From sequence record PX907402.1: DNA of 44,317 bases; one strand, given 5' to 3'. Source of the stretch: a phage. Shown here in pieces: positions 2,064 through 38,768 of the stretch (within the stretch, counting starts at the first letter, position 1; each line of letters begins with the position of its first letter). The notes under the pieces were generated by a model. The model made no database searches. It had not been told where the DNA came from and saw nothing but the letters and a program-made list of their open reading frames with translations. Position numbers and translations under genes: made by a program.

Positions 2064-2656
2064 TATTTCACCTTCGAATTGATTTCTGCCGCTACGACGC
2101 GAACAATCCCCGCGGGCGCTTGTTTACTCCAGCCATACTCAAGTCGCTGCGCATACGGCACATTGTTAGTAAACCAGATCGACCCGTATTCACCGGAATC
2201 ATAATGCGCCAGCACTTCACGCCCCGCGGCTAATGTTGCCGTTCCGGCCTTGTCCACGCGGTCAATAGCGCCGACAGCCGGGCGGTCGAACGTAACCTGC
2301 CAGTTTCCCCGGAAGCGTCCTCCGGTGTAATTCTTCGCCGCCCAGCCACGCTGGCGGAACGTGACGTTGCCGTTTTTAGTTTTGAATGAGATGAGCACAC
2401 TGGCGTGCTTCTTCTGCCCACGCTTCAGTTTGCCGCCATTCTTGCGGCGCTGTGCGGCGTTCACCTTGTTCGCGTGCTGGAGGGCCATCGCATAAGCCTT
2501 GTTAATCTTCCACCGGCGAGGGTCGCCAACCGGGGAGATCTCGATCAGTCGTCCGAGTATTTGCATCCCGTACGCCCGTACCGCCTTGTCGTTGTTCTCC
2601 TTCGTCTTATCCACCCACGTAGCAATAGTGGCGGCGAATGAGTAGACTTCAGCCAC
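2063..2656 (-). CDS. Head-tail joining protein, HK97 gp10-like (putative)
   Basis: 197 aa; C-terminal ...FTNNVPYAQRLEYGWS... resembles HK97 gp10-family signature; synteny. Confidence 0.45.
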   Translation of the reverse strand: MAEVYSFAATIATWVDKTKENNDKAVRAYGMQILGRLIEISPVGDPRRWKINKAYAMALQHANKVNAAQRRKNGGKLKRGQKKHASVLISFKTKNGNVTFRQRGWAAKNYTGGRFRGNWQVTFDRPAVGAIDRVDKAGTATLAAGREVLAHYDSGEYGSIWFTNNVPYAQRLEYGWSKQAPAGIVRVVAAEINSKVK

Positions 2657-2657
2657 G

Positions 2658-3011
2658 TTAGCCCCTTAGCTGTAGTTGAAACAGCATGGTTGTGCCAGCC
2701 GGTTGCATGGGGTTTGGGTTGATGACCCTGTAGTCTGTATTGTTCAGGCTAATCAAATCCCCGACCTGCACCGGCTTTACTGCCTGACACAAAAACTTCA
2801 CATCTCCGGCAACGATACGCGTCCCGTCGATCTCGCTTGGCTTGTACTCCTCACGAAGTCCGATGACGTCAAACGAGGTCGGAGGGATGACCACTTCGTC
2901 GCCGTCTACGCGGTCGACTGTACCAGGACGCGTCACCGTAGCCGTCATGCCGAATTTTTTAATCAGCGGATTCACTTTCCGCTTTAATCCTGCGTAATTA
3001 AAGCCCGCCAT
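2658..3011 (-). CDS. Head-tail adaptor / head closure protein (putative)
   Basis: 117 aa ORF in connector gene block. Confidence 0.4.
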   Translation of the reverse strand: MAGFNYAGLKRKVNPLIKKFGMTATVTRPGTVDRVDGDEVVIPPTSFDVIGLREEYKPSEIDGTRIVAGDVKFLCQAVKPVQVGDLISLNNTDYRVINPNPMQPAGTTMLFQLQLRG

Positions 3012-20123: not shown

Positions 20124-20375
20124 ATGGCACGCTTCACGCTAATCGAGGCGGTGGACTCCCGCGACCAGCGCCCGTACTATTGGCTATTCGAACGCATCGG
20201 CAGCTTTCAGTCACGCGTTGCCGTAATAGATAAACGCCGTAACACGCCCGCGCAAATTAAGCGCACCACCTTTACTAACCCCGACTTTTATATTTGGGCG
20301 GATTCCAATCTGGAATATGTTCGCTTCGCAGTTGCATCCGAAGCAAAAACAATTGACCGCTGGGAGACAAAATAA
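20124..20375 (+). CDS. Hypothetical protein
   Basis: 83 aa ORF with gagga RBS. Confidence 0.5.
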   Translation: MARFTLIEAVDSRDQRPYYWLFERIGSFQSRVAVIDKRRNTPAQIKRTTFTNPDFYIWADSNLEYVRFAVASEAKTIDRWETK

Positions 20376-20564
20376 ATGGCTATATTCTTTGTTTTATTTC
20401 GTTGCCGTATTACCGGCGACGAGCAACCAGAAATTGTTATGAATCAAAACTGGAATTGCTGCTGGATGCAAGCTCGAGGACTGGCGGCTACCATGAACAA
20501 TGCCGCGAAGCGGGCCAATGTTGAACACGATTATTACATTGCTCAATTTTCAAGGGTGGAATAA
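20376..20564 (+). CDS. Hypothetical protein
   Basis: 62 aa ORF, gggaga RBS. Confidence 0.3.
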   Translation: MAIFFVLFRCRITGDEQPEIVMNQNWNCCWMQARGLAATMNNAAKRANVEHDYYIAQFSRVE

Positions 20565-21994
20565 TGGCGATTAAACCAAAACGTAAAACGCAATCCGGCA
20601 GCAACACGGAACACTCATTACTCGGCCCATCCGGTGCTAAAAAATGGATGGGTTGCCCCGCCGCCCTGGTGGTGGAAAAAGATATCCCGAACGAATCCGG
20701 GCAGGCCGCGATTAACGGTACGAGTATGCACACCGTATCGGAAGTCGTGCTCAACCGCATTATCGCCGGGGAGAAGATGATAACCGCTAAGACGTACAAA
20801 GGGTGTTACGTCGAGAACGAAGGTAAGGGGCCAGTGAAGGCACACCCGAAAGCGCCGAAAGGCGGCGTGCTGGTCAACGACGACATGGTGAAACAGTGCG
20901 ACGCGTACATCGACCACTGGCGACCGCTCCTAGAAGTGGCGGAGTTTGTTCAGCTTGAGATGCGCGCCGATCTCACCCGCGTCCTACACTCTGGCTTCGA
21001 GATCGACGGCAACCGGGTTAAGACGTTCGGCACTGCGGATATGGTCATGGTCATGAAGAAGACCGACGGCACGTACATGCTGATTGTTGGCGACCTGAAG
21101 ACGGGGCGGCATAAGGTCGAGGCGAAAGAAAACAAACAGCTTATGCTGTATGCGCTCGGCCTGCTGCGCAAGCTGCAATCCATGTACGACATCACGACCG
21201 TGCGCCTGGTCATCTTCCAGCCGTATTGCGGCGGGGCGTCGGAGTGGGATATTTCGGTAGAAGCCCTGGAGATATTCGCGAAGTTTGCGTCCAAGCGTGC
21301 TATCGCCGCCCTGGAAGCGTACGCCCGCGGCAAAAAGGGACTCACCCGTGCCGACTTCCGACCGAGCGTTGATGCGTGTCAGTGGTGCAGATTTGCGGAT
21401 CAGTGTAGCGCCCGCGCTAAGGCTGCAATCGACACGATGACCCCACCAACGGCAACAGACGAAGACCTGGGCGACGACGTGAGTATTGCGACAGAGGAAG
21501 AATGCGCTAATCACGATCGCAATATGGCCCGCGAAGCCCGCAAAGCGGCACGACGTGCGAAGCGTGGCAAGAAAGAAGCGGCCCCCGGCGCTATGACTGC
21601 CGCGGAACTGCGCAAGGCGTATGAAGGTTTAGACGCAATGCGCCAGCACATCAAGGCTATCGAGTCCGCGGTATTCAAGGCGGTTATGGCGGGCGATGGC
21701 GAATCGCTGGGCCTCAAAATGGTTGCCGGTAAGGAAGGGATCCGCAAGTGGGCGGACGAAAGCGAAGTGATTGAAATCTTCACGAAGGCCCGGATCAAGC
21801 GCGATGTTATGTACAAAGAAACATTACTCAGCCCTACTGATGCCGAGAAGGTATTGAAGGACGAGAAGCCGAAAGTGTGGGCAAAGTTGTGTGATAAAAT
21901 CACGCGCGCACCAGCTAAACCGGTATTAGCACCCATCGACGACCCGCGCCCCGCGTGGTCTGTAGCTACTGACGAGGACTTAAGCAATGAATAA
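20564..21994 (+). CDS. PD-(D/E)XK nuclease, RecB/Cas4-like with Cys cluster
   Basis: GTADMVMV...IVGDLKTG...QLMLYALG motif order typical of RecB-family nucleases; one N-terminal Cys and C-terminal CQWCRFADQC. Confidence 0.5.
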   Translation: MAIKPKRKTQSGSNTEHSLLGPSGAKKWMGCPAALVVEKDIPNESGQAAINGTSMHTVSEVVLNRIIAGEKMITAKTYKGCYVENEGKGPVKAHPKAPKGGVLVNDDMVKQCDAYIDHWRPLLEVAEFVQLEMRADLTRVLHSGFEIDGNRVKTFGTADMVMVMKKTDGTYMLIVGDLKTGRHKVEAKENKQLMLYALGLLRKLQSMYDITTVRLVIFQPYCGGASEWDISVEALEIFAKFASKRAIAALEAYARGKKGLTRADFRPSVDACQWCRFADQCSARAKAAIDTMTPPTATDEDLGDDVSIATEEECANHDRNMAREARKAARRAKRGKKEAAPGAMTAAELRKAYEGLDAMRQHIKAIESAVFKAVMAGDGESLGLKMVAGKEGIRKWADESEVIEIFTKARIKRDVMYKETLLSPTDAEKVLKDEKPKVWAKLCDKITRAPAKPVLAPIDDPRPAWSVATDEDLSNE

Positions 21995-32420: not shown

Positions 32421-34019
32421 TTATGATTTAGCCTGTGCCGCTACTGCAGCTTTCAGTTCCTCCAGTTCTTTCTGCATATCATCCATCTTATCCATCAGTG
32501 CTAGTATGGCTTCGTGATGTAGCGCGGCGGACACCCCCGCTGTGTCGACGCTCATTACATCTTCAACAACTGTATCATCTTCAAGTGTGACAGGGTTTTT
32601 GTTTACCACTCTAACAGCATCTGGAAAATACTTTTGCACTTCCTGTGCTACAAAACCAAAACCTTTAAGTGGGTTATTTTTGAAGCGCATAGTCCATGAT
32701 ACGCCTCGAATAGAGCGCATCTTAGTTAGCGGGTCCGCTATTCTAACTATATTTTTTTTTACTCTGATGTCGGATGTGTTGACCCAGTTTGCGGCGCTTG
32801 CGGTGCCGTTGTTATTGAATACATAGTCACAATTCATACCCTGACCGCTGTAAACTGACAGTTGGCATGCCGCCATATCCTGACCGGAACCACGTATACC
32901 ACCGATACGCCACGCGCCATCGAACCATCCGCCTTCTAAATAGTTCGCCCAACCTGACGCCGGCGTGTCTGCCGGGTTCCACATCCAGATGTGGTTTCGG
33001 GGAATACCGTCCGGTATTCCAAAAAAGCGTCCGATGTTGCCGAACACATCGAGAGGCCGAACGACAGGCCATAAGTCCGCAACCTTGTTTACGCCAGTAC
33101 CACCAGACTCGACTGCAAGAGGCGTGCTGAAGGTTTGCGCCTGGGACCATGTGTTTGCGCCGTTTAGTGTCGGCACGTTATCCCCAGACGTGCCGACATT
33201 TAGCGTCGCCGCGGACCCCAAGCCTAAGTTACCCCGCGCTGCCGTTGTGTCGGCAACGTCGCTAAGGTTGTTGCCCTTTGCCAGAAATCTAGACGGGTCG
33301 ATCTCATTCTTGAATTGTTCGGCTTCGTTCCGGTATCCCTGCGCGGCAGTGCTGGCGGCTTGCGCGGCAGTGCTGGCGGCTTGCGCGGCAGTGCTGGCGA
33401 CGTTGGCCTCGTCCCTCATAGCGCCGGTGTCAGTCTTGATCTGGTTCGTCTGGTCCTTGATGGTCTGCGTATCCGTCTTAATCTGGTTGGTGGCGTCGCG
33501 AATACTAGCCGTCTCGGTCTTGAAGCCTTCGGCCTCATTGCGAAACCCTTGCGCGGCTGCTTCCGATGCGGCGGTTTGTTGTTGCAGGTTGCGCATTTCA
33601 ACTGGGTCAACTTGCTTCATCAATTGCGACAGGTAACCCCAGGACATACCCTGCATAACTTGCCCGTTCGGTAGCGTTACCGTGATTTCTTCTTCGTCTC
33701 CGAAGATTGCGCGCCAGTTGTTTTCGTCCGCGATCATCAAGCGCAACGCTTTCTGCGCTTGGACGGTTACGCCCATCGTTGCCAGTGACATGGTATCGCG
33801 CTTAACGCCATCCCACGCAAGGCCGGTTGCCGTTGGGCCGTCGAACGGCAGAACCAGAGTGAGCGACGTGTCGCTTTCAACGGACGCGATTGCCACGGTG
33901 TAGGGGACTTGTCCTACAACCAGCGTTAAGAAGTCGCCTGCGTTAAACGCGGTAAACGTCGTGCCGACCCCGACAACCGCCTTGCTGTTATTCGTTACGG
34001 ATAGAGTACCCGCTGCCAT
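32421..34019 (-). CDS. Tail fibre protein with C-terminal intramolecular chaperone (peptidase S74-like) domain
   Basis: C-terminal SDIRVKKNIVRIADP...VDTAGVSAALHHEAILALMDKMDDMQKELEELK resembles the auto-cleaving chaperone of phage fibres/endosialidases; internal (STAAQAA)x3 repeat. Confidence 0.75.
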   Translation of the reverse strand: MAAGTLSVTNNSKAVVGVGTTFTAFNAGDFLTLVVGQVPYTVAIASVESDTSLTLVLPFDGPTATGLAWDGVKRDTMSLATMGVTVQAQKALRLMIADENNWRAIFGDEEEITVTLPNGQVMQGMSWGYLSQLMKQVDPVEMRNLQQQTAASEAAAQGFRNEAEGFKTETASIRDATNQIKTDTQTIKDQTNQIKTDTGAMRDEANVASTAAQAASTAAQAASTAAQGYRNEAEQFKNEIDPSRFLAKGNNLSDVADTTAARGNLGLGSAATLNVGTSGDNVPTLNGANTWSQAQTFSTPLAVESGGTGVNKVADLWPVVRPLDVFGNIGRFFGIPDGIPRNHIWMWNPADTPASGWANYLEGGWFDGAWRIGGIRGSGQDMAACQLSVYSGQGMNCDYVFNNNGTASAANWVNTSDIRVKKNIVRIADPLTKMRSIRGVSWTMRFKNNPLKGFGFVAQEVQKYFPDAVRVVNKNPVTLEDDTVVEDVMSVDTAGVSAALHHEAILALMDKMDDMQKELEELKAAVAAQAKS

Positions 34020-34034
34020 AGCTAAATCCTCATA

Positions 34035-34068
34035 ATTGGTTGCATTCTTGATCGAGCGGTGTAATACT
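34035..34068 (+). promoter_or_regulatory. Candidate promoter for lipoprotein moron
   Basis: ATTGGTTGCAT with TTGCAT (34040-34045), ~17 bp spacer, AATACT. Confidence 0.4.
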
Positions 34069-34098
34069 TAAACTCAACCAAATTTAGGAGATGATACC

Positions 34099-34317
34099 AT
34101 GAAAACTTTAATTATGATTTGTGCGGTTCTTTTGTCCGGTTGTGCCAACATGCCGTCTAAAATCTGCGACGCAACATACATGAATAGTGGTATGGAGTAT
34201 TCCGTCCCTGTGTTTGGGGTTGCGGACGTTAGCGGTCATAAAATGCTCAAGGCCGGGTATCCGTTCAACTTCCAGTATGTGTCGATAGACCACTTCAAAA
34301 GCACCACCTGCGAATAA
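34099..34317 (+). CDS. Lipoprotein, possible Cor-like superinfection exclusion protein
   Basis: Signal peptide with lipobox LLSG-C, 72 aa, RBS aggag, own promoter and terminator, opposite strand to tail genes. Confidence 0.55.
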   Translation: MKTLIMICAVLLSGCANMPSKICDATYMNSGMEYSVPVFGVADVSGHKMLKAGYPFNFQYVSIDHFKSTTCE

Positions 34318-34336
34318 GCCCCGAAAGGGGCTTTTT
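34318..34336 (+). terminator. Intrinsic terminator
   Basis: gcccc-gaaa-ggggc followed by TTTTT. Confidence 0.55.
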
Positions 34337-35006
34337 ATATCCCGTCCACGTTAATTGCGGTCAGCGCAACTCCGGTGTTTTGATACCCAGCGATGCTACC
34401 GGACCCAGCCTGCGTAGCGACTGCGTTAATGCGAGTGCCGCTTCCGTTGTCGTAAGCCCCGGCCCCTGCCGAGATCTGGATAATCTGCGGCTGCCCTTGT
34501 ACAAAGATCTGGATCAGAGTGGCGCCCATTAACATAGGTGATACCGCGTACTTACCCGGCAGCGTCTGGTCTATGTTTATCCCTCCGTTATTGCCGAAGC
34601 TGCCAACTGTGACTAAATCGGTGAGTACCTTGCTCTCGTTGGTGAGTATGCACGTCCCGCTGGCGTCCCAAATCGCGAAGCCCCATTTTGGCAGCGGTTG
34701 CGGGAATCGCGCGAATACGTACGCCGTGACGGTAAAATGCGGGTTATTCTGACCCTGAATACTTCCGCTAAATATAATCCGGTTACCTGATCGTGACGCC
34801 GCCAGGACGCAACGGTTATTGGACCGCATGAACACCATCGCCGGATAGTTCGCGGGGATATCCACGCCACCGCTTGCTGTTTTATAATCAGCACCGGCGT
34901 CCACTGAATTTGCCGACACCTTAGCGTAGAGGACGAACGGCGTTGAGTTTGGCGTGACGAATGGGTTGCCGTTGTTGTTATCGATTAACGCGCCGAAGTT
35001 TGCCAT
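34335..35006 (-). CDS. Tail-associated protein (hypothetical)
   Basis: 223 aa ORF between J-like gene and tail fibre. Confidence 0.45.
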   Translation of the reverse strand: MANFGALIDNNNGNPFVTPNSTPFVLYAKVSANSVDAGADYKTASGGVDIPANYPAMVFMRSNNRCVLAASRSGNRIIFSGSIQGQNNPHFTVTAYVFARFPQPLPKWGFAIWDASGTCILTNESKVLTDLVTVGSFGNNGGINIDQTLPGKYAVSPMLMGATLIQIFVQGQPQIIQISAGAGAYDNGSGTRINAVATQAGSGSIAGYQNTGVALTAINVDGI

Positions 35007-35008
35007 TT

Positions 35009-35312
35009 TTACGCTTTCTCCACAAAAACTACTACTTCACATTCTGACGCCGGGTAGTTTCCAATACCTACGCTGTTTGCGGCAGATACTGTTATCGTGT
35101 TCCCGCTGGCACGGATCGCCCTGCCGACCGTAGTGCCGCCTGCGTCCAGCGTAACCGCAAAACCTACTTTCATACCCGACGGAATATCGAACGACCACGC
35201 CCCCGTTGTTTGACCTTGTGTCAGTTTAATAATTCCGGCAACCGAAACGGGCTTGATCCCGTAGTTGTTTGGTCGCCCTTGCGCGTCCCATGTTGCTACA
35301 CCGAAAGCCATG
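35009..35312 (-). CDS. Hypothetical tail-region protein
   Basis: ATG 35312 after gggagg RBS. Confidence 0.4.
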
Positions 35313-35325
35313 CAATACCTCCCTA

Positions 35326-35344
35326 AGAAAGGGGCCGAAGCCCC
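35326..35344 (-). terminator. Intrinsic terminator after J-like gene
   Basis: ggggc-cgaa-gcccc followed by TTTCTT on minus strand. Confidence 0.4.
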
Positions 35345-35348
35345 TGTG

Positions 35349-38300
35349 CTACCAATAACCCGTGATTTCACCAATCTGCACGCGAAGCACGCCGTTTCCG
35401 TCCCTGACGCTGATTTGCGTGTTTGTCTGTTTCATCGCGCCGCCGTTGCCGGTTCCCAGGTTGATAAACGTTCCGTCTTTCCCTAAGCGCCAACCACGCG
35501 AGTAGCCGTCATAGTTATTCGATTGCAACGTGTCCGTAATCTGCGCGAAGTTGATAGTCGCGTCTTTGATGCGTGCCGTGTCAATATACACCGCGCCGCC
35601 GTCTACAATAAACGCGGACGAAAGCGACCCGTTAGATGGGTGCATGATGTAGAACTGGTCCGCCTTGAACGCGATGCGGGATTTAACCGCGCCACCTTCC
35701 GCAACAACTGAAAGCTGCATACCGGCGTCATAGTACGTCCCGTTATACGTCACGCCAGCCTTAAGGCTGTAAGTCGCGCTACCACCCGCGTGGTTAAACG
35801 AAGACGTCATCTTCTGCTCGATAGCTGCGGATTGCTGACCGAACTGCGCCGCGACCTGGGTCTTATACTCCGCCAGTGCGCCCGCTACGTCCGCCGTTGC
35901 CGTTTGTACCTGTTGGATGGCTGCTTCCTGTTCCGAAAACTTAGCGGCAACCGTTTGCTGGTACTGGGCGAACGCTTGTTCCTGCGTACTCTGCGCGGTC
36001 TGCAACGTGTGGATTGCCGCTTCCGCATCGTCAAGGCGAGTACCGATCAACGTTTCCAGTTGCGCTACCGCCTGGTGGGCATCTGCCGCCACGTTATACG
36101 CGACCGAGATTTCTGCATAAATCCCCTTGTACTCGGCGCGGGCGTTAAACAATTGCTGTGCGTCGGTGAGCATAGCCTCATAAATGCCTTGCGGCATGGT
36201 GTCGATCGCTTCCTGGAAGCGTTTACCGTCCTCAGAAGTCAAGAACTCGTCGTCCAGCCCCTTCATATACTCGTCAACATTGTCACTCACCTGCCCTTCA
36301 AACGGGGCAGACCAGTCCGACAGGTTGCCGATTTTATCCGCTACACGGGCGCGCAACTGCTGATAGATGCCGAACTCCAGCGACGTTTGCGCATACTCAG
36401 ACCCCGGGTATGGGACGTTGGTTAGGAATTTCCATTCCGTTTCACCCGTCTTGCGAACTTCAAGCTCGGTGTACGAAATATCCGTCGCGGCGTTGTTGTG
36501 GTTCCACTTCCACAAAATTTGGTGAAGGCCCGAAATCGCGTTGGTGATGATAGGCGCGTTAAGACCGCCGAGACGACCTTCCACCGGCGTGATAGCGGAC
36601 GACACCCACGGGGATGAAATCTCGCCCATACCGATCGCGCGGACGCGTGCCTGATAGTTACCGGAGAACACGTTAGGGATGTGCGCGCCGTTCGATGCCG
36701 TGCGGGGGATGTTTACCCAGTCGTTTCCCCACTGTACCGCCATATTCTGCAAGCTGGTACGTCGCCACTGGATCTCATAAACAACGGCATCCTTCACCGG
36801 CGGGAACACAATATCCACGTTGGTGATTAGCTGGCCTTGCGATGAAATCTGCGACGGGGTAATGGTCACGGACTCCGGACCCTTCATTACGCCGTCAGGA
36901 ACTTGCGTAAAGATGCCTGGGTCAAGGCGAGCGCCATTATCGACGGCATCATATTTGCTATCGTTGTACTCGATCCCGCGCACTGAAAAAGTGCTGGTAG
37001 AGTCGTCATATTCTAGGTCGGTGATGCGGAACTTCTGCAACTGGATATCGTCGCCATCAACGCAAAACGGCTGGTCTGGAATAGGGTCGGCGTCCAGTTC
37101 GGTTTTTAGCGTAACCTTGTTGCCGTTGACGCTGGCGATCTCGCGAGTCTCCACATTACCGCTATCGGTGCGTACCAGGAATTTATCACCTGGGCGGAAC
37201 GTGATTTCGCTGTCCGTGTTAAGCACGGTACGCGTGCCAGGGTCCGACAACAGGCGACCGCCGCGTGTCTCGAAGCCGCCAGAAATGTTTGTATCGGCGA
37301 TCGCGACTACGCTACCCGGAATAAAGAAAAGTCCCTCCATGCCAACCTTAAAGCTAACTTGCTGGTCAAGCTGGTTGGAGATTAGCGCCCAGTGCCCACG
37401 TCGTTGCGCTTCTGACTCACGCGTACAGCCGATCGCCGTTATATCCAGACGGTTAATCTTATGGCGGCGTACCAGTTCGACACGCTGTCCCGTAGCAATG
37501 GCATCTTCATAGTGGTTCTTCGGGTTGCCGTATGCTACCGCGAATGTGGAATACCGAGTTTTCTGGCTCCCTGACGCGTAGTCGAATCGACCATCAATGA
37601 CCGAGGCGTTGGTGATAGTGTGCGATACCGCTGCGACCGGCTGATCGCTTACAATATTCAACATCTGGTTGCCCCACCAGGTCATACCGGCAAAGATGGC
37701 GGCTAAATCCTTAAGCACGGTCCAGGCGTCGGTCTGCGACTGGATGTACATATCATTCTTAAATCGGATTTCCTGCCCGCCGTTGCCGTCGCTGACCAGT
37801 TGATCGCAGCGCTTCGCAATCTGGTAGAGCGCATATCTGTTTAGCATTTGCGGCTTGATCCGGCGACCGAGGCCGAAGCGCTCAGTAATACAAATATCAT
37901 ACCAGTGCCACGCAGGGTTATCCGTCCATGCGCGTTTAAACGTCCCGTCCCAGTCGCCCGAATAGGTATGGTTGATCGGGTCGTAGTTGTTCGGAACCAG
38001 CACTTTGCGGCCTTTGCACTTAATGGAAACGCGCGGGATGTTCTGGAACGCTTTAGCGTCGAACTCCACGAATAACAGCGCGGTTAGCGGGTAGCGCAGG
38101 CGGGCGTCGATAATCTCAGTAATTGATTGTACCTGAATATCGTTCACCACTTTCGCCGATGTGGAATCTGCCGTTGTGCGGTGAACTTCCACGCGCCAGC
38201 CGGTATTCACGTTCGGCGGTAACTCGATGCGGTGGTCGCGCTCGTACAGCGACATTGTTTTACCAACGGCAGCGAAGGTAAACTCACGCGGATCAGCGTT

Positions 38301-38768
38301 GTCCGTATACACAACGATTTTGTAGTCGATGCGCCCGCCCACCAGGTCGCCGTTGTCTTCGTTGGTGTACAGGGCCGGAATGCCGATTCGAATGCGCACG
38401 GCGTCAAGACTGGTGTCGTTAATCTGGCGCACCCACGGCGTGCCGTTTTCCAGTTTTACGCCTACGGATTGCTCACTTTCCACCGCTGAAAATCCGTGGA
38501 TCACGTCCTGGTGCTGTGTGCCTGGGCGGAACTCCACGCGCGCGCCGGGGAAGTTTTCCGACAGGTCGGCGTTCTGGATCGGAGTGCCGTCCAGATATAC
38601 ACGCTGCCGTAATTCGCTGTCGCTGGTAATACTTTCGAATTCCCCTTCCCCTAGCGCAAGCAAGATGCGAATTTTAGCCAGGGAATGCAGGCTATCCGGC
38701 GTTTCCTGCGGGGTGTGCTGTTTGCCGCCGCCGCCTTTATGCCCAGTGACGTCGTAGATAATCGTCAT
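35349..38768 (-). CDS. Tail tip / host specificity protein (lambda J-like)
   Basis: 1139 aa ORF directly after I-like gene; synteny and size. Confidence 0.8.
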   Translation of the reverse strand: MTIIYDVTGHKGGGGKQHTPQETPDSLHSLAKIRILLALGEGEFESITSDSELRQRVYLDGTPIQNADLSENFPGARVEFRPGTQHQDVIHGFSAVESEQSVGVKLENGTPWVRQINDTSLDAVRIRIGIPALYTNEDNGDLVGGRIDYKIVVYTDNADPREFTFAAVGKTMSLYERDHRIELPPNVNTGWRVEVHRTTADSTSAKVVNDIQVQSITEIIDARLRYPLTALLFVEFDAKAFQNIPRVSIKCKGRKVLVPNNYDPINHTYSGDWDGTFKRAWTDNPAWHWYDICITERFGLGRRIKPQMLNRYALYQIAKRCDQLVSDGNGGQEIRFKNDMYIQSQTDAWTVLKDLAAIFAGMTWWGNQMLNIVSDQPVAAVSHTITNASVIDGRFDYASGSQKTRYSTFAVAYGNPKNHYEDAIATGQRVELVRRHKINRLDITAIGCTRESEAQRRGHWALISNQLDQQVSFKVGMEGLFFIPGSVVAIADTNISGGFETRGGRLLSDPGTRTVLNTDSEITFRPGDKFLVRTDSGNVETREIASVNGNKVTLKTELDADPIPDQPFCVDGDDIQLQKFRITDLEYDDSTSTFSVRGIEYNDSKYDAVDNGARLDPGIFTQVPDGVMKGPESVTITPSQISSQGQLITNVDIVFPPVKDAVVYEIQWRRTSLQNMAVQWGNDWVNIPRTASNGAHIPNVFSGNYQARVRAIGMGEISSPWVSSAITPVEGRLGGLNAPIITNAISGLHQILWKWNHNNAATDISYTELEVRKTGETEWKFLTNVPYPGSEYAQTSLEFGIYQQLRARVADKIGNLSDWSAPFEGQVSDNVDEYMKGLDDEFLTSEDGKRFQEAIDTMPQGIYEAMLTDAQQLFNARAEYKGIYAEISVAYNVAADAHQAVAQLETLIGTRLDDAEAAIHTLQTAQSTQEQAFAQYQQTVAAKFSEQEAAIQQVQTATADVAGALAEYKTQVAAQFGQQSAAIEQKMTSSFNHAGGSATYSLKAGVTYNGTYYDAGMQLSVVAEGGAVKSRIAFKADQFYIMHPSNGSLSSAFIVDGGAVYIDTARIKDATINFAQITDTLQSNNYDGYSRGWRLGKDGTFINLGTGNGGAMKQTNTQISVRDGNGVLRVQIGEITGYW

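What the first reader, a model, noticed from the sequence alone, without database searches (positions are those of the whole stretch)
34035..34336. Lipoprotein moron between tail fibre and tail genes (candidate Cor-like superinfection exclusion)
A 72-aa lipoprotein (lipobox LLSG-C) is encoded on the plus strand with its own ATTGGTTGCAT-type promoter, strong RBS and terminator, inserted between minus-strand tail genes. That location and size match Cor-type outer-membrane lipoproteins that block receptor use by related phages, but sequence identity to Cor was not verified.
Basis: inference. Interest (0 to 1): 0.45.

Follow-up and report, generated by a model that had tools for sequence, protein, structure and literature searches.

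The report
Cor exclusion lipoprotein gene of a Dhillonvirus
This is an ordinary, already-annotated Cor-family lipoprotein gene of a virulent E. coli phage, which most likely jams the FhuA receptor from the periplasmic side so that infected cells and their debris no longer bind phages that use FhuA.

Summary

One correction: this is not a free-standing moron. It is the exclusion half of a 1.4-kb receptor-specificity cassette (34113..35512). In HK578 that cassette is replaced by an LptD-type unit (rtp44-like RBP plus Rtp45-like lipoprotein) behind the identical promoter, 5'UTR and first five codons.

Two minor observations look new. The cassette junction lies inside the signal-peptide codons. 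The cor promoter belongs to a phage-wide TTGGTTGC motif class (20 copies against about 1.4 expected). Verdict: already known, low interest.

The parts
34035..34068 (+). cor promoter. The ATTGGTTGCAT motif supplies the -35 (TTGCAT, 34040-45). A 17-nt spacer follows, then TG (34060-61) and the -10 AATACT (34063-68).
   Evidence: Read from the sequence. Not called by the generic scan because the -35 matches only 3 of 6. All elements are invariant in 7 Dhillonviruses and in HK578. It belongs to a motif class with 20 copies against 1.35 expected.
34086..34090 (+). Shine-Dalgarno AGGAG, 8 nt upstream of the ATG.
34099..34317 (+). cor: a 72-aa Cor-family prolipoprotein. Signal peptide is residues 1-14, the lipidated Cys is C15, and the mature domain is 58 aa with conserved C23 and C71.
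34316..34341 (+). Intrinsic terminator of cor: AAGCCCC-GAAA-GGGGCTT followed by TTTATAT. On the minus strand the hairpin has no U-tract.
34335..35006 (-). 223-aa 'membrane associated protein' (phrog_425), an RBP-locus gene. It is 98.7% identical to that of phage bob, which is reported to depend on FhuA.
35009..35311 (-). 100-aa 'outer membrane protein' (phrog_557), an RBP-locus gene. The true start is ATG 35311 with a GGGAGG SD, not the 121-aa TTG ORF.
35349..38768 (-). J-like central tail fibre. Its last ~55 codons (35349-35512) belong to the variable cassette.
34113..35512 (.). Receptor-specificity cassette that differs from HK578: cor from codon 6 onward, both RBP-locus genes and the J C-terminus.
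32421..34019 (-). Lateral tail fibre gene, divergent from cor across a 79-bp intergenic region. Its N-terminal part is backbone.

Best explanation
The gene encodes a Cor-family superinfection-exclusion lipoprotein of a virulent, FhuA-targeting Dhillonvirus.

Inferred mechanism: the prolipoprotein is exported, lipidated on C15 and cleaved by signal peptidase II. [quoted passage not shown] There its ~58-residue all-beta domain, clamped by a C23-C71 disulphide, binds the periplasmic face and plug of FhuA. As shown for T5 Llp, this would force extracellular loops, including EL8, to fold inward. The phage's own receptor-binding protein and those of other FhuA phages could then no longer dock. That would protect the infected cell from superinfection and protect progeny from being wasted on cell debris.

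The gene is transcribed from its own sigma-70-type promoter, antisense to the surrounding tail operon, and stops at its own terminator.

Shown here: gene structure, family membership, Llp-like predicted fold, purifying selection, cassette linkage to a FhuA-type RBP locus. Inferred: localisation, disulphide, FhuA binding, exclusion phenotype, timing of expression.
For: Family membership:
- NF047972 'phage exclusion lipoprotein Cor' equivalog, 62.5 bits against a cut-off of 31.
- PHROG 1119, E 2.3e-27, full length.
- 49% identity to T1 Cor and 40-42% to N15, HK022 and ES18 Cor.
- 353 family members found by profile search, many named Cor by NCBI.

Conserved features: C15, C23, A52, G53 and C71 are invariant in 85 sequences. 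C23 and C71 are mature residues 9 and 57, matching the Llp Cys11-Cys58 disulphide said to be shared with Cor (PMC9586334).

Receptor:
- The 223-aa neighbour is 98.7% identical to that of bob, which is reported to depend on FhuA (PMC10373560).
- JLBYU37 carries a Cor 83% identical to this one. JLBYU37, JLBYU60 and Teewinot depend on FhuA loop L8, which is one of the loops Llp folds inward.
- The Cor cassette co-occurs with FhuA use in BASEL Drexlerviridae and Dhillonvirus phages (PMC13164509).

Selection and expression signals: dN/dS is 0.05-0.25, and the promoter, SD and terminator are conserved.

Parallel allele: HK578 carries an Rtp45-type lipoprotein in the same slot. Rtp45 is a structurally proven periplasmic exclusion lipoprotein for LptD (PMC12685063).
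Against: - No experiment exists for this protein or, as far as I found, for any Dhillonvirus Cor.
- The molecular mechanism of Cor itself is still described as unresolved (bioRxiv 10.64898/2026.03.26.714494). The Llp analogy rests on fold similarity and about 24% identity.
- The Foldseek E-value (0.089) and the HMM E-values against Llp (0.2 and 0.047) are individually weak.
- Cor-like proteins also occur in phages that use BtuB, so the family does not dictate FhuA by itself.
- Timing of expression is unknown. In HK578 the same promoter would also drive the putative RBP gene, so 'early' cannot be assumed.
Confidence: 0.85

Rival explanations
1. It is a Cor-family lipoprotein that inactivates a different outer-membrane receptor, such as BtuB or another TonB-dependent transporter, rather than FhuA.
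For: Cor-like proteins are reported in BtuB-using Tempevirinae and Markadamsvirinae (PMC13164509). One Dhillonvirus, PTXU06, is reported to depend on BtuB.
Against: The linked RBP-locus gene is 98.7% identical to that of bob, which is reported to depend on FhuA. Dhillonviruses with 83-94% identical Cor (JLBYU37, Envy, bob) depend on FhuA. In BASEL, all phages carrying the full three-gene cassette use FhuA.
Confidence: 0.07
2. It is a lysis protein, an o-spanin or Rz1-like outer-membrane lipoprotein, rather than an exclusion factor.
For: It is a small phage outer-membrane lipoprotein. There is a weak PHROG hit to an Rz-like spanin (E 0.15), confined to the signal peptide at residues 3-21.
Against: The gene is not in or near the lysis cassette. 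In the HK578 map, holin and endolysin lie about 20 kb away and a spanin is annotated elsewhere. The full-length match is to Cor. There is no proline-rich periplasmic domain and no overlapping or adjacent i-spanin partner.
Confidence: 0.02
3. It is an accessory or assembly factor for the receptor-binding complex encoded by the two neighbouring genes, and not primarily an exclusion factor.
For: Cor is tightly linked to phrog_557 and phrog_425 across unrelated phages. The function of those two proteins is unproven, and one paper even suggests they act in exclusion.
Against: Cor homologues of phi80, N15, HK022 and mEp167 exclude FhuA phages when expressed from prophages or plasmids, according to the literature cited. 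The Llp-like fold and the lipobox put it in the host envelope, not the virion. Cor is transcribed on the opposite strand from a non-structural type of promoter.
Confidence: 0.04
4. It is a chance ORF or a decaying remnant that is not expressed.
For: The promoter matches only 7 of 12 consensus positions and was missed by the consensus scan.
Against: dN/dS is 0.05-0.25. The gene is kept full-length in 246 phage records. The SD, the extended -10 and the terminator are conserved, with one compensatory change in the terminator stem.
Confidence: 0.01

Closest known systems
Cor of phages T1, phi80, N15, HK022 and mEp167 (NCBIfam NF047972 / PHROG 1119)
   Same: - Same family by curated HMM.
- Same size.
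- Same lipobox.
- Same conserved Cys pair and the A-G-Y-P-F motif.
- Same genomic position after J and the two RBP-locus genes.
- Same linkage to FhuA-using phages.
- In T1 and ES18, the same antisense orientation.
   Different: Identity to the characterised members is only 40-49%. N15, HK022 and Midgardsormr38 have cor on the same strand as the tail genes. Here it sits in a virulent phage behind a Dhillonvirus-specific TTGGTTGC-type promoter that T1 cor lacks.
Llp of phage T5 (PDB 8A60, 7QJF)
   Different: Sequence identity is about 24%, and the HMM E-values are only 0.05-0.2. The RBP partners are unrelated: pb5 in T5, phrog_425 and phrog_557 proteins here.
Rtp45 of phage Rtp, and the HK578 gp24 / Oekolampad SE lipoprotein
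   Same: It occupies the identical slot in Dhillonvirus genomes, behind the same promoter, 5'UTR and first five codons. It has the same logic: a periplasmic lipoprotein that deforms the phage's own receptor.
   Different: Beyond codon 5 the mature sequence does not align with Cor. It targets LptDE, not FhuA. It is co-transcribed with its RBP gene.

Membership tests
Cor superinfection-exclusion lipoprotein (NF047972 / PHROG 1119) | Scores above the curated cut-off of the family's equivalog HMM over the full length | tested here: met
   62.5 bits against a cut-off of 31, residues 2-72 on profile positions 2-77 of 78. PHROG 1119 E 2.3e-27, residues 1-72.
Cor superinfection-exclusion lipoprotein (NF047972 / PHROG 1119) | Lipoprotein signal peptide with a lipobox Cys, and no inner-membrane retention signal | tested here: met
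   The lipobox is L-S-G-C15. C15 is invariant in 85 homologues. Residue +2 is Ala. Actual lipidation was not tested.
Cor superinfection-exclusion lipoprotein (NF047972 / PHROG 1119) | Conserved Cys pair near the two ends of the mature domain, plus the AGYPF core motif | tested here: met
   C23, C71, A52 and G53 are invariant. P55 and F56 are at least 90% conserved.
Cor superinfection-exclusion lipoprotein (NF047972 / PHROG 1119) | Genomic position downstream of the J-like gene together with the phrog_557 and phrog_425 genes | tested here: met
   The order J, phrog_557, phrog_425, cor, tail fibre is the same as in T1, N15, ES18, SSL-2009a, aaroes and Midgardsormr38.
Cor superinfection-exclusion lipoprotein (NF047972 / PHROG 1119) | Excludes FhuA-dependent phages and inactivates FhuA functions when expressed | not testable with these tools
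   Needs plating, adsorption and ferrichrome uptake assays. The only support is indirect: the RBP locus is 98.7% identical to that of bob, reported as FhuA-dependent.
Llp-type FhuA-jamming lipoproteins (T5 Llp fold) | Llp-like three-dimensional fold | tested here: met
Llp-type FhuA-jamming lipoproteins (T5 Llp fold) | Significant sequence similarity to Llp | tested here: inconclusive
   Llp is the top PDB hit, but at E 0.2 for the single sequence and 0.047 for the profile, and only over the N-terminal 40 residues.
Llp-type FhuA-jamming lipoproteins (T5 Llp fold) | Binds the periplasmic face and plug of FhuA and folds EL7/EL8 inward | not testable with these tools
   No complex prediction or experiment was available here. 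An AF3 model for KanT1 Cor with FhuA is reported at ipTM 0.84 (PMC13164509).
Moron (independent transcription unit added between genes that are adjacent in relatives) | Own promoter and terminator flanking a single gene | tested here: met
Moron (independent transcription unit added between genes that are adjacent in relatives) | Relatives lack the unit, so the flanking genes are directly adjacent (a simple insertion) | tested here: not met
   HK578 lacks cor but has another lipoprotein gene behind the same promoter. The difference is a 1.4-kb cassette replacement that includes the RBP genes and the J C-terminus, not an insertion.
Spanin (Rz1-like o-spanin) | Significant match to a spanin family, and location in the lysis cassette with an i-spanin partner | tested here: not met
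   The only match is E 0.15 over the signal peptide. The locus contains tail and RBP genes.

The most novel reading that the evidence does not exclude
The most novel reading not excluded concerns the conserved TTGGTTGC-type promoter, the 5'UTR and the first five codons (MKTLI). These may act as a fixed expression socket and homology arm. The other arm would lie in J, about 55 codons from its end. Through these arms Dhillonviruses would exchange whole receptor cassettes (RBP plus matching exclusion lipoprotein) by recombination inside the signal-peptide codons. The TTGGTTGC motif, found in tandem or inverted pairs at about 7 promoters, may be the operator of an unidentified phage regulator that times exclusion-gene expression together with the DNA-metabolism genes.
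Probability: 0.3. Interest if true: 0.4.

Novelty: already known. Interest (0 to 1): 0.15.

Why it matters
For this gene, little is at stake. It confirms that Cor is the cognate exclusion factor in the FhuA-type receptor cassette of a Dhillonvirus, and RefSeq relatives and recent papers already say so.

Practical value:
- The cassette lets the phage's terminal receptor (FhuA) be predicted from sequence.
- It flags that cells infected by this phage should become refractory to other FhuA phages such as T1, T5 and phi80, which is relevant when designing phage cocktails.
- The mapped cassette boundaries (34113 and 35512) and the conserved promoter socket could guide engineered receptor swaps in Dhillonviruses.

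Tried and rejected
- Pfam has no Cor model. The only hit was a spurious DcuA_DcuB match at E 0.18.
- PADLOC gave no hit.
I kept it on the grounds of conservation and motif recurrence, not consensus match.
- A single-sequence search of the 5.8-billion-protein index found only 5 close relatives. An alignment query was needed to reach the family.
- I considered that cor orientation tracks lifestyle: antisense in virulent T1 and Dhillonvirus, same strand in temperate N15 and HK022. Rejected, because temperate ES18 has the antisense arrangement.
- I considered that the TTGGTTGC promoter class marks 'early' genes, since it drives the resolvase, ligase and endonuclease genes. I did not adopt this, because in HK578 the same promoter precedes the putative RBP gene.
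- A literature search for the motif string returned only unrelated primer sequences.
- The antisense 61-aa ORF (34108..34293) is rejected as a gene. Its open frame shrinks to 45 codons in relatives, and the selection signal lies in the + frame.

Full report
**What is there**

The window is a complete genome of about 44 kb from a Dhillonvirus-like coliphage. Region 33000-36000 is 91-94% identical at the nucleotide level to Escherichia phages Henu5_1, B2, Kente, SECphi18 and others.

At 34099..34317 on the + strand lies a 72-codon ORF, MKTLIMICAVLLSGCANMPSK....
- It has a typical lipoprotein signal peptide, with K2, a hydrophobic core and the lipobox L-S-G-C15. Residue +2 is Ala. By the established E. 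coli sorting rule (Asp at +2 retains a lipoprotein in the inner membrane) this predicts outer-membrane sorting.
- AGGAG sits 8 nt upstream of the ATG.
- A GC-rich hairpin followed by a T-run lies at 34316-34341. It was called by the terminator scan and folds at -13 kcal/mol.
- The genes on both sides are on the minus strand: the lateral tail fibre (32421..34019, phrog_1980) and, on the other side, a 223-aa phrog_425 gene, a phrog_557 gene and the J-like central fibre.
- The phrog_557 gene is really 35009..35311, 100 aa. It has a GGGAGG SD and an ATG after a hairpin that follows J. The 121-aa TTG ORF in the mechanical list is not the gene.

**Is the gene real?**

Among seven Dhillonvirus copies, dN/dS is 0.05-0.25 while dS reaches 0.2-1.1. 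The antisense open frame is not maintained.

In the same seven phages the -35 motif, the TG-n-AATACT element, the SD and the start codon are invariant, and the substitutions fall in the spacer. The terminator stem is conserved while its loop varies (GAAA, GGAA, TTTC), and JLBYU37 carries a compensatory G-C to U-A change in one stem pair.

The generic promoter scan did not call this promoter, because the -35 matches only 3 of 6 positions. Its status therefore rests on conservation and recurrence, not on consensus match.

**What the protein is**

- Pfam has no model for it.
- PHROG 1119, 'Cor superinfection exclusion protein', matches residues 1-72 at E 2.3e-27.
- The curated NCBIfam equivalog NF047972, 'phage exclusion lipoprotein Cor', scores 62.5 bits against a cut-off of 31.
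- tblastn against 50,697 phage records finds 246 records. They include T1 Cor (49% identity, E 4e-14), HK022 Cor (42%), ES18 gp32 (42%) and N15 gene 24 (40%). Many Dhillonvirus records at 79-96% identity are already annotated as Cor or as a super-infection exclusion protein.
- A profile search finds 353 family members, many named 'phage exclusion lipoprotein Cor' in enterobacterial genomes.
- In an 85-sequence alignment, C15, C23, A52, G53 and C71 are invariant. G31, P55, F56, V61 and F66 are at least 90% conserved.

**Fold and mechanism**

An AlphaFold2 model built on that alignment has mean pLDDT 85.7, about 94 over the mature all-beta domain.

| Search against the PDB | Top hit | Score |
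|---|---|---|
| Foldseek | 8a60_B | E 0.089, probability 1.00 |
| phmmer and hmmsearch | 8a60_B | E 0.2 and 0.047 |

The published Llp work shows the following (PMC9586334):
- Llp is periplasmic.
- It binds a non-native state of the FhuA plug.
- It makes loops EL7 and EL8 fold inward over the RBP binding site.
- It carries a Cys11-Cys58 disulphide, which the authors say is shared with Cor.

Here the invariant C23 and C71 are mature residues 9 and 57. A 2026 preprint and a 2026 paper reach the same 'Cor and Llp are one family' conclusion from predicted structures, and one reports an AF3 Cor:FhuA model with ipTM 0.84. The same preprint states that the molecular mechanism of Cor itself has not been determined experimentally.

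**Which receptor?**

- The 223-aa neighbour is 98.7% identical to that of phage bob. Bob and Envy are reported to depend on FhuA (PMC10373560).
- JLBYU37, JLBYU60 and Teewinot strictly require FhuA loop L8 (PMC10373560). JLBYU37 Cor is 83% identical to this one.
- JLBYU37, JLBYU60, Teewinot and KarlBarth carry a second allele of the 223-aa gene, only 52% identical. JLBYU37 and KarlBarth still have 83-92% identical Cor, so two RBP alleles share one Cor type.
- The KanT1 paper reports that the three-gene cor cassette is present in all ten BASEL Drexlerviridae and Dhillonvirus phages that use FhuA.

L8 dependence of the relatives fits an Llp-like mechanism that buries EL8. That link is my inference.

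**Synteny and the 'moron' label**

The module J, phrog_557, phrog_425, cor, tail fibre is shared by T1, aaroes, SSL-2009a, ES18, N15 and Midgardsormr38.

| cor orientation | Phages |
|---|---|
| Antisense to the tail genes | T1, aaroes, ES18, all Dhillonviruses examined |
| Same strand as the tail genes | N15, HK022, Midgardsormr38, SSU5 |

Orientation therefore does not track lifestyle.

HK578, the type Dhillonvirus, has no integrase or repressor and lacks Cor. In the same slot it carries an rtp44-like gene and a 76-aa Rtp45-like lipoprotein gene. Rtp45 is a structurally characterised periplasmic exclusion lipoprotein for LptDE (PMC12685063).

HK578 and the window are about 90% identical from the tail-fibre N-terminus through the promoter, 5'UTR, SD and the first five codons (MKTLI) of the lipoprotein gene. 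Similarity then stops abruptly. BLAST places the non-homologous block at window 34113-35512. It ends about 55 codons before the J stop.

So cor is not a gene inserted between neighbours that were once adjacent. It is the exclusion half of a replaceable receptor-specificity cassette, and its promoter is part of the backbone.

**The promoter class**

The 8-mer TTGGTTGC occurs 20 times in the window against about 1.35 expected. TTGGTTGCA occurs 10 times against 0.34, and the exact 10-mer occurs 5 times. HK578 has 19 copies against 1.75 expected, and none of 100 shuffles reached that number. T1 cor lacks the motif upstream.

Most copies are intergenic, in tandem or inverted pairs. They overlap -35/spacer/-10 arrangements 58-64 nt upstream of start codons at about seven sites. 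The downstream genes include a RusA-like resolvase, an endonuclease VII/Lar-like protein, a DNA ligase and small unknowns.

This supports the claim that cor has its own promoter. It also suggests co-regulation with non-structural genes, possibly through an unidentified regulator. However, in HK578 the same promoter precedes the putative RBP gene, so I do not claim early timing.

**Verdict**

The gene is a new sequence variant (best match 95.8%) of a well-known and already annotated family. The function and mechanism remain inferred for this protein. The cassette junction inside the signal-peptide codons and the TTGGTTGC promoter/operator class are small observations I did not find described in the literature. 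Novelty: already known. Interest: low.

Noticed in passing
window 5685, 5699, 16136, 16167, 16538, 16573, 16627, 19442, 22247, 22263, 26537, 29479, 29496, 31159, 31164, 34036 (and others): The motif TTGGTTGC(A) is about 15-fold over-represented: 20 copies against 1.35 expected here, and 19 against 1.75 in HK578. Copies sit in tandem or inverted pairs overlapping sigma-70-like promoters 58-64 nt upstream of non-structural genes and cor. This looks like the operator or UP-type element of an unidentified Dhillonvirus regulator. I did not find it described in the literature search.
   Followed up: partly
window 34113..35512 vs L015 (HK578) 20169..21536: The FhuA-type and LptD-type receptor cassettes are exchanged between precise junctions. 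One is after codon 5 of the exclusion-lipoprotein gene, and the other is about 55 codons before the end of J. The promoter, 5'UTR and the MKTLI codons are shared backbone.
   Followed up: yes
window 34335..35006 (223-aa phrog_425 gene): Homologues at 34-36% identity occur in 111 Klebsiella phage records (~49-50 kb), whereas Cor was detected in only 2 Klebsiella records. There the RBP-locus gene seems to travel without a recognisable Cor.
   Followed up: no
window 34335..35006 compared with L011/L012 (KarlBarth, JLBYU37): Two alleles of the 223-aa RBP-locus protein, only 52% identical, exist among Cor-carrying Dhillonviruses, while Cor stays 83-92% identical in JLBYU37 and KarlBarth. That is mosaicism inside the cassette. 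Tested members of both allele groups are reported as FhuA-dependent.
   Followed up: partly
window 35009..35374: The mechanical 121-aa TTG ORF overlaps the end of J. The real phrog_557 gene starts at ATG 35311 (100 aa). It is preceded by a hairpin (35323-35338, aggggcttcggcccct) plus a T-rich stretch between J and the RBP locus. T1 has an annotated terminator at the equivalent place.
   Followed up: partly
window 32465..33572: The central and C-terminal part of the lateral tail fibre gene has no nucleotide similarity to HK578, while both flanks are about 90% identical. This is a second, independent host-range swap region next to the cor cassette.
   Followed up: no
L001 (T1) 2474..3000: T1 cor is preceded by a 527-bp AT-rich intergenic region shared divergently with the recE-like gene. 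It contains repeated GTTACAC/GTAACAC motifs, which look like a different, T1-specific promoter/operator class.
   Followed up: no
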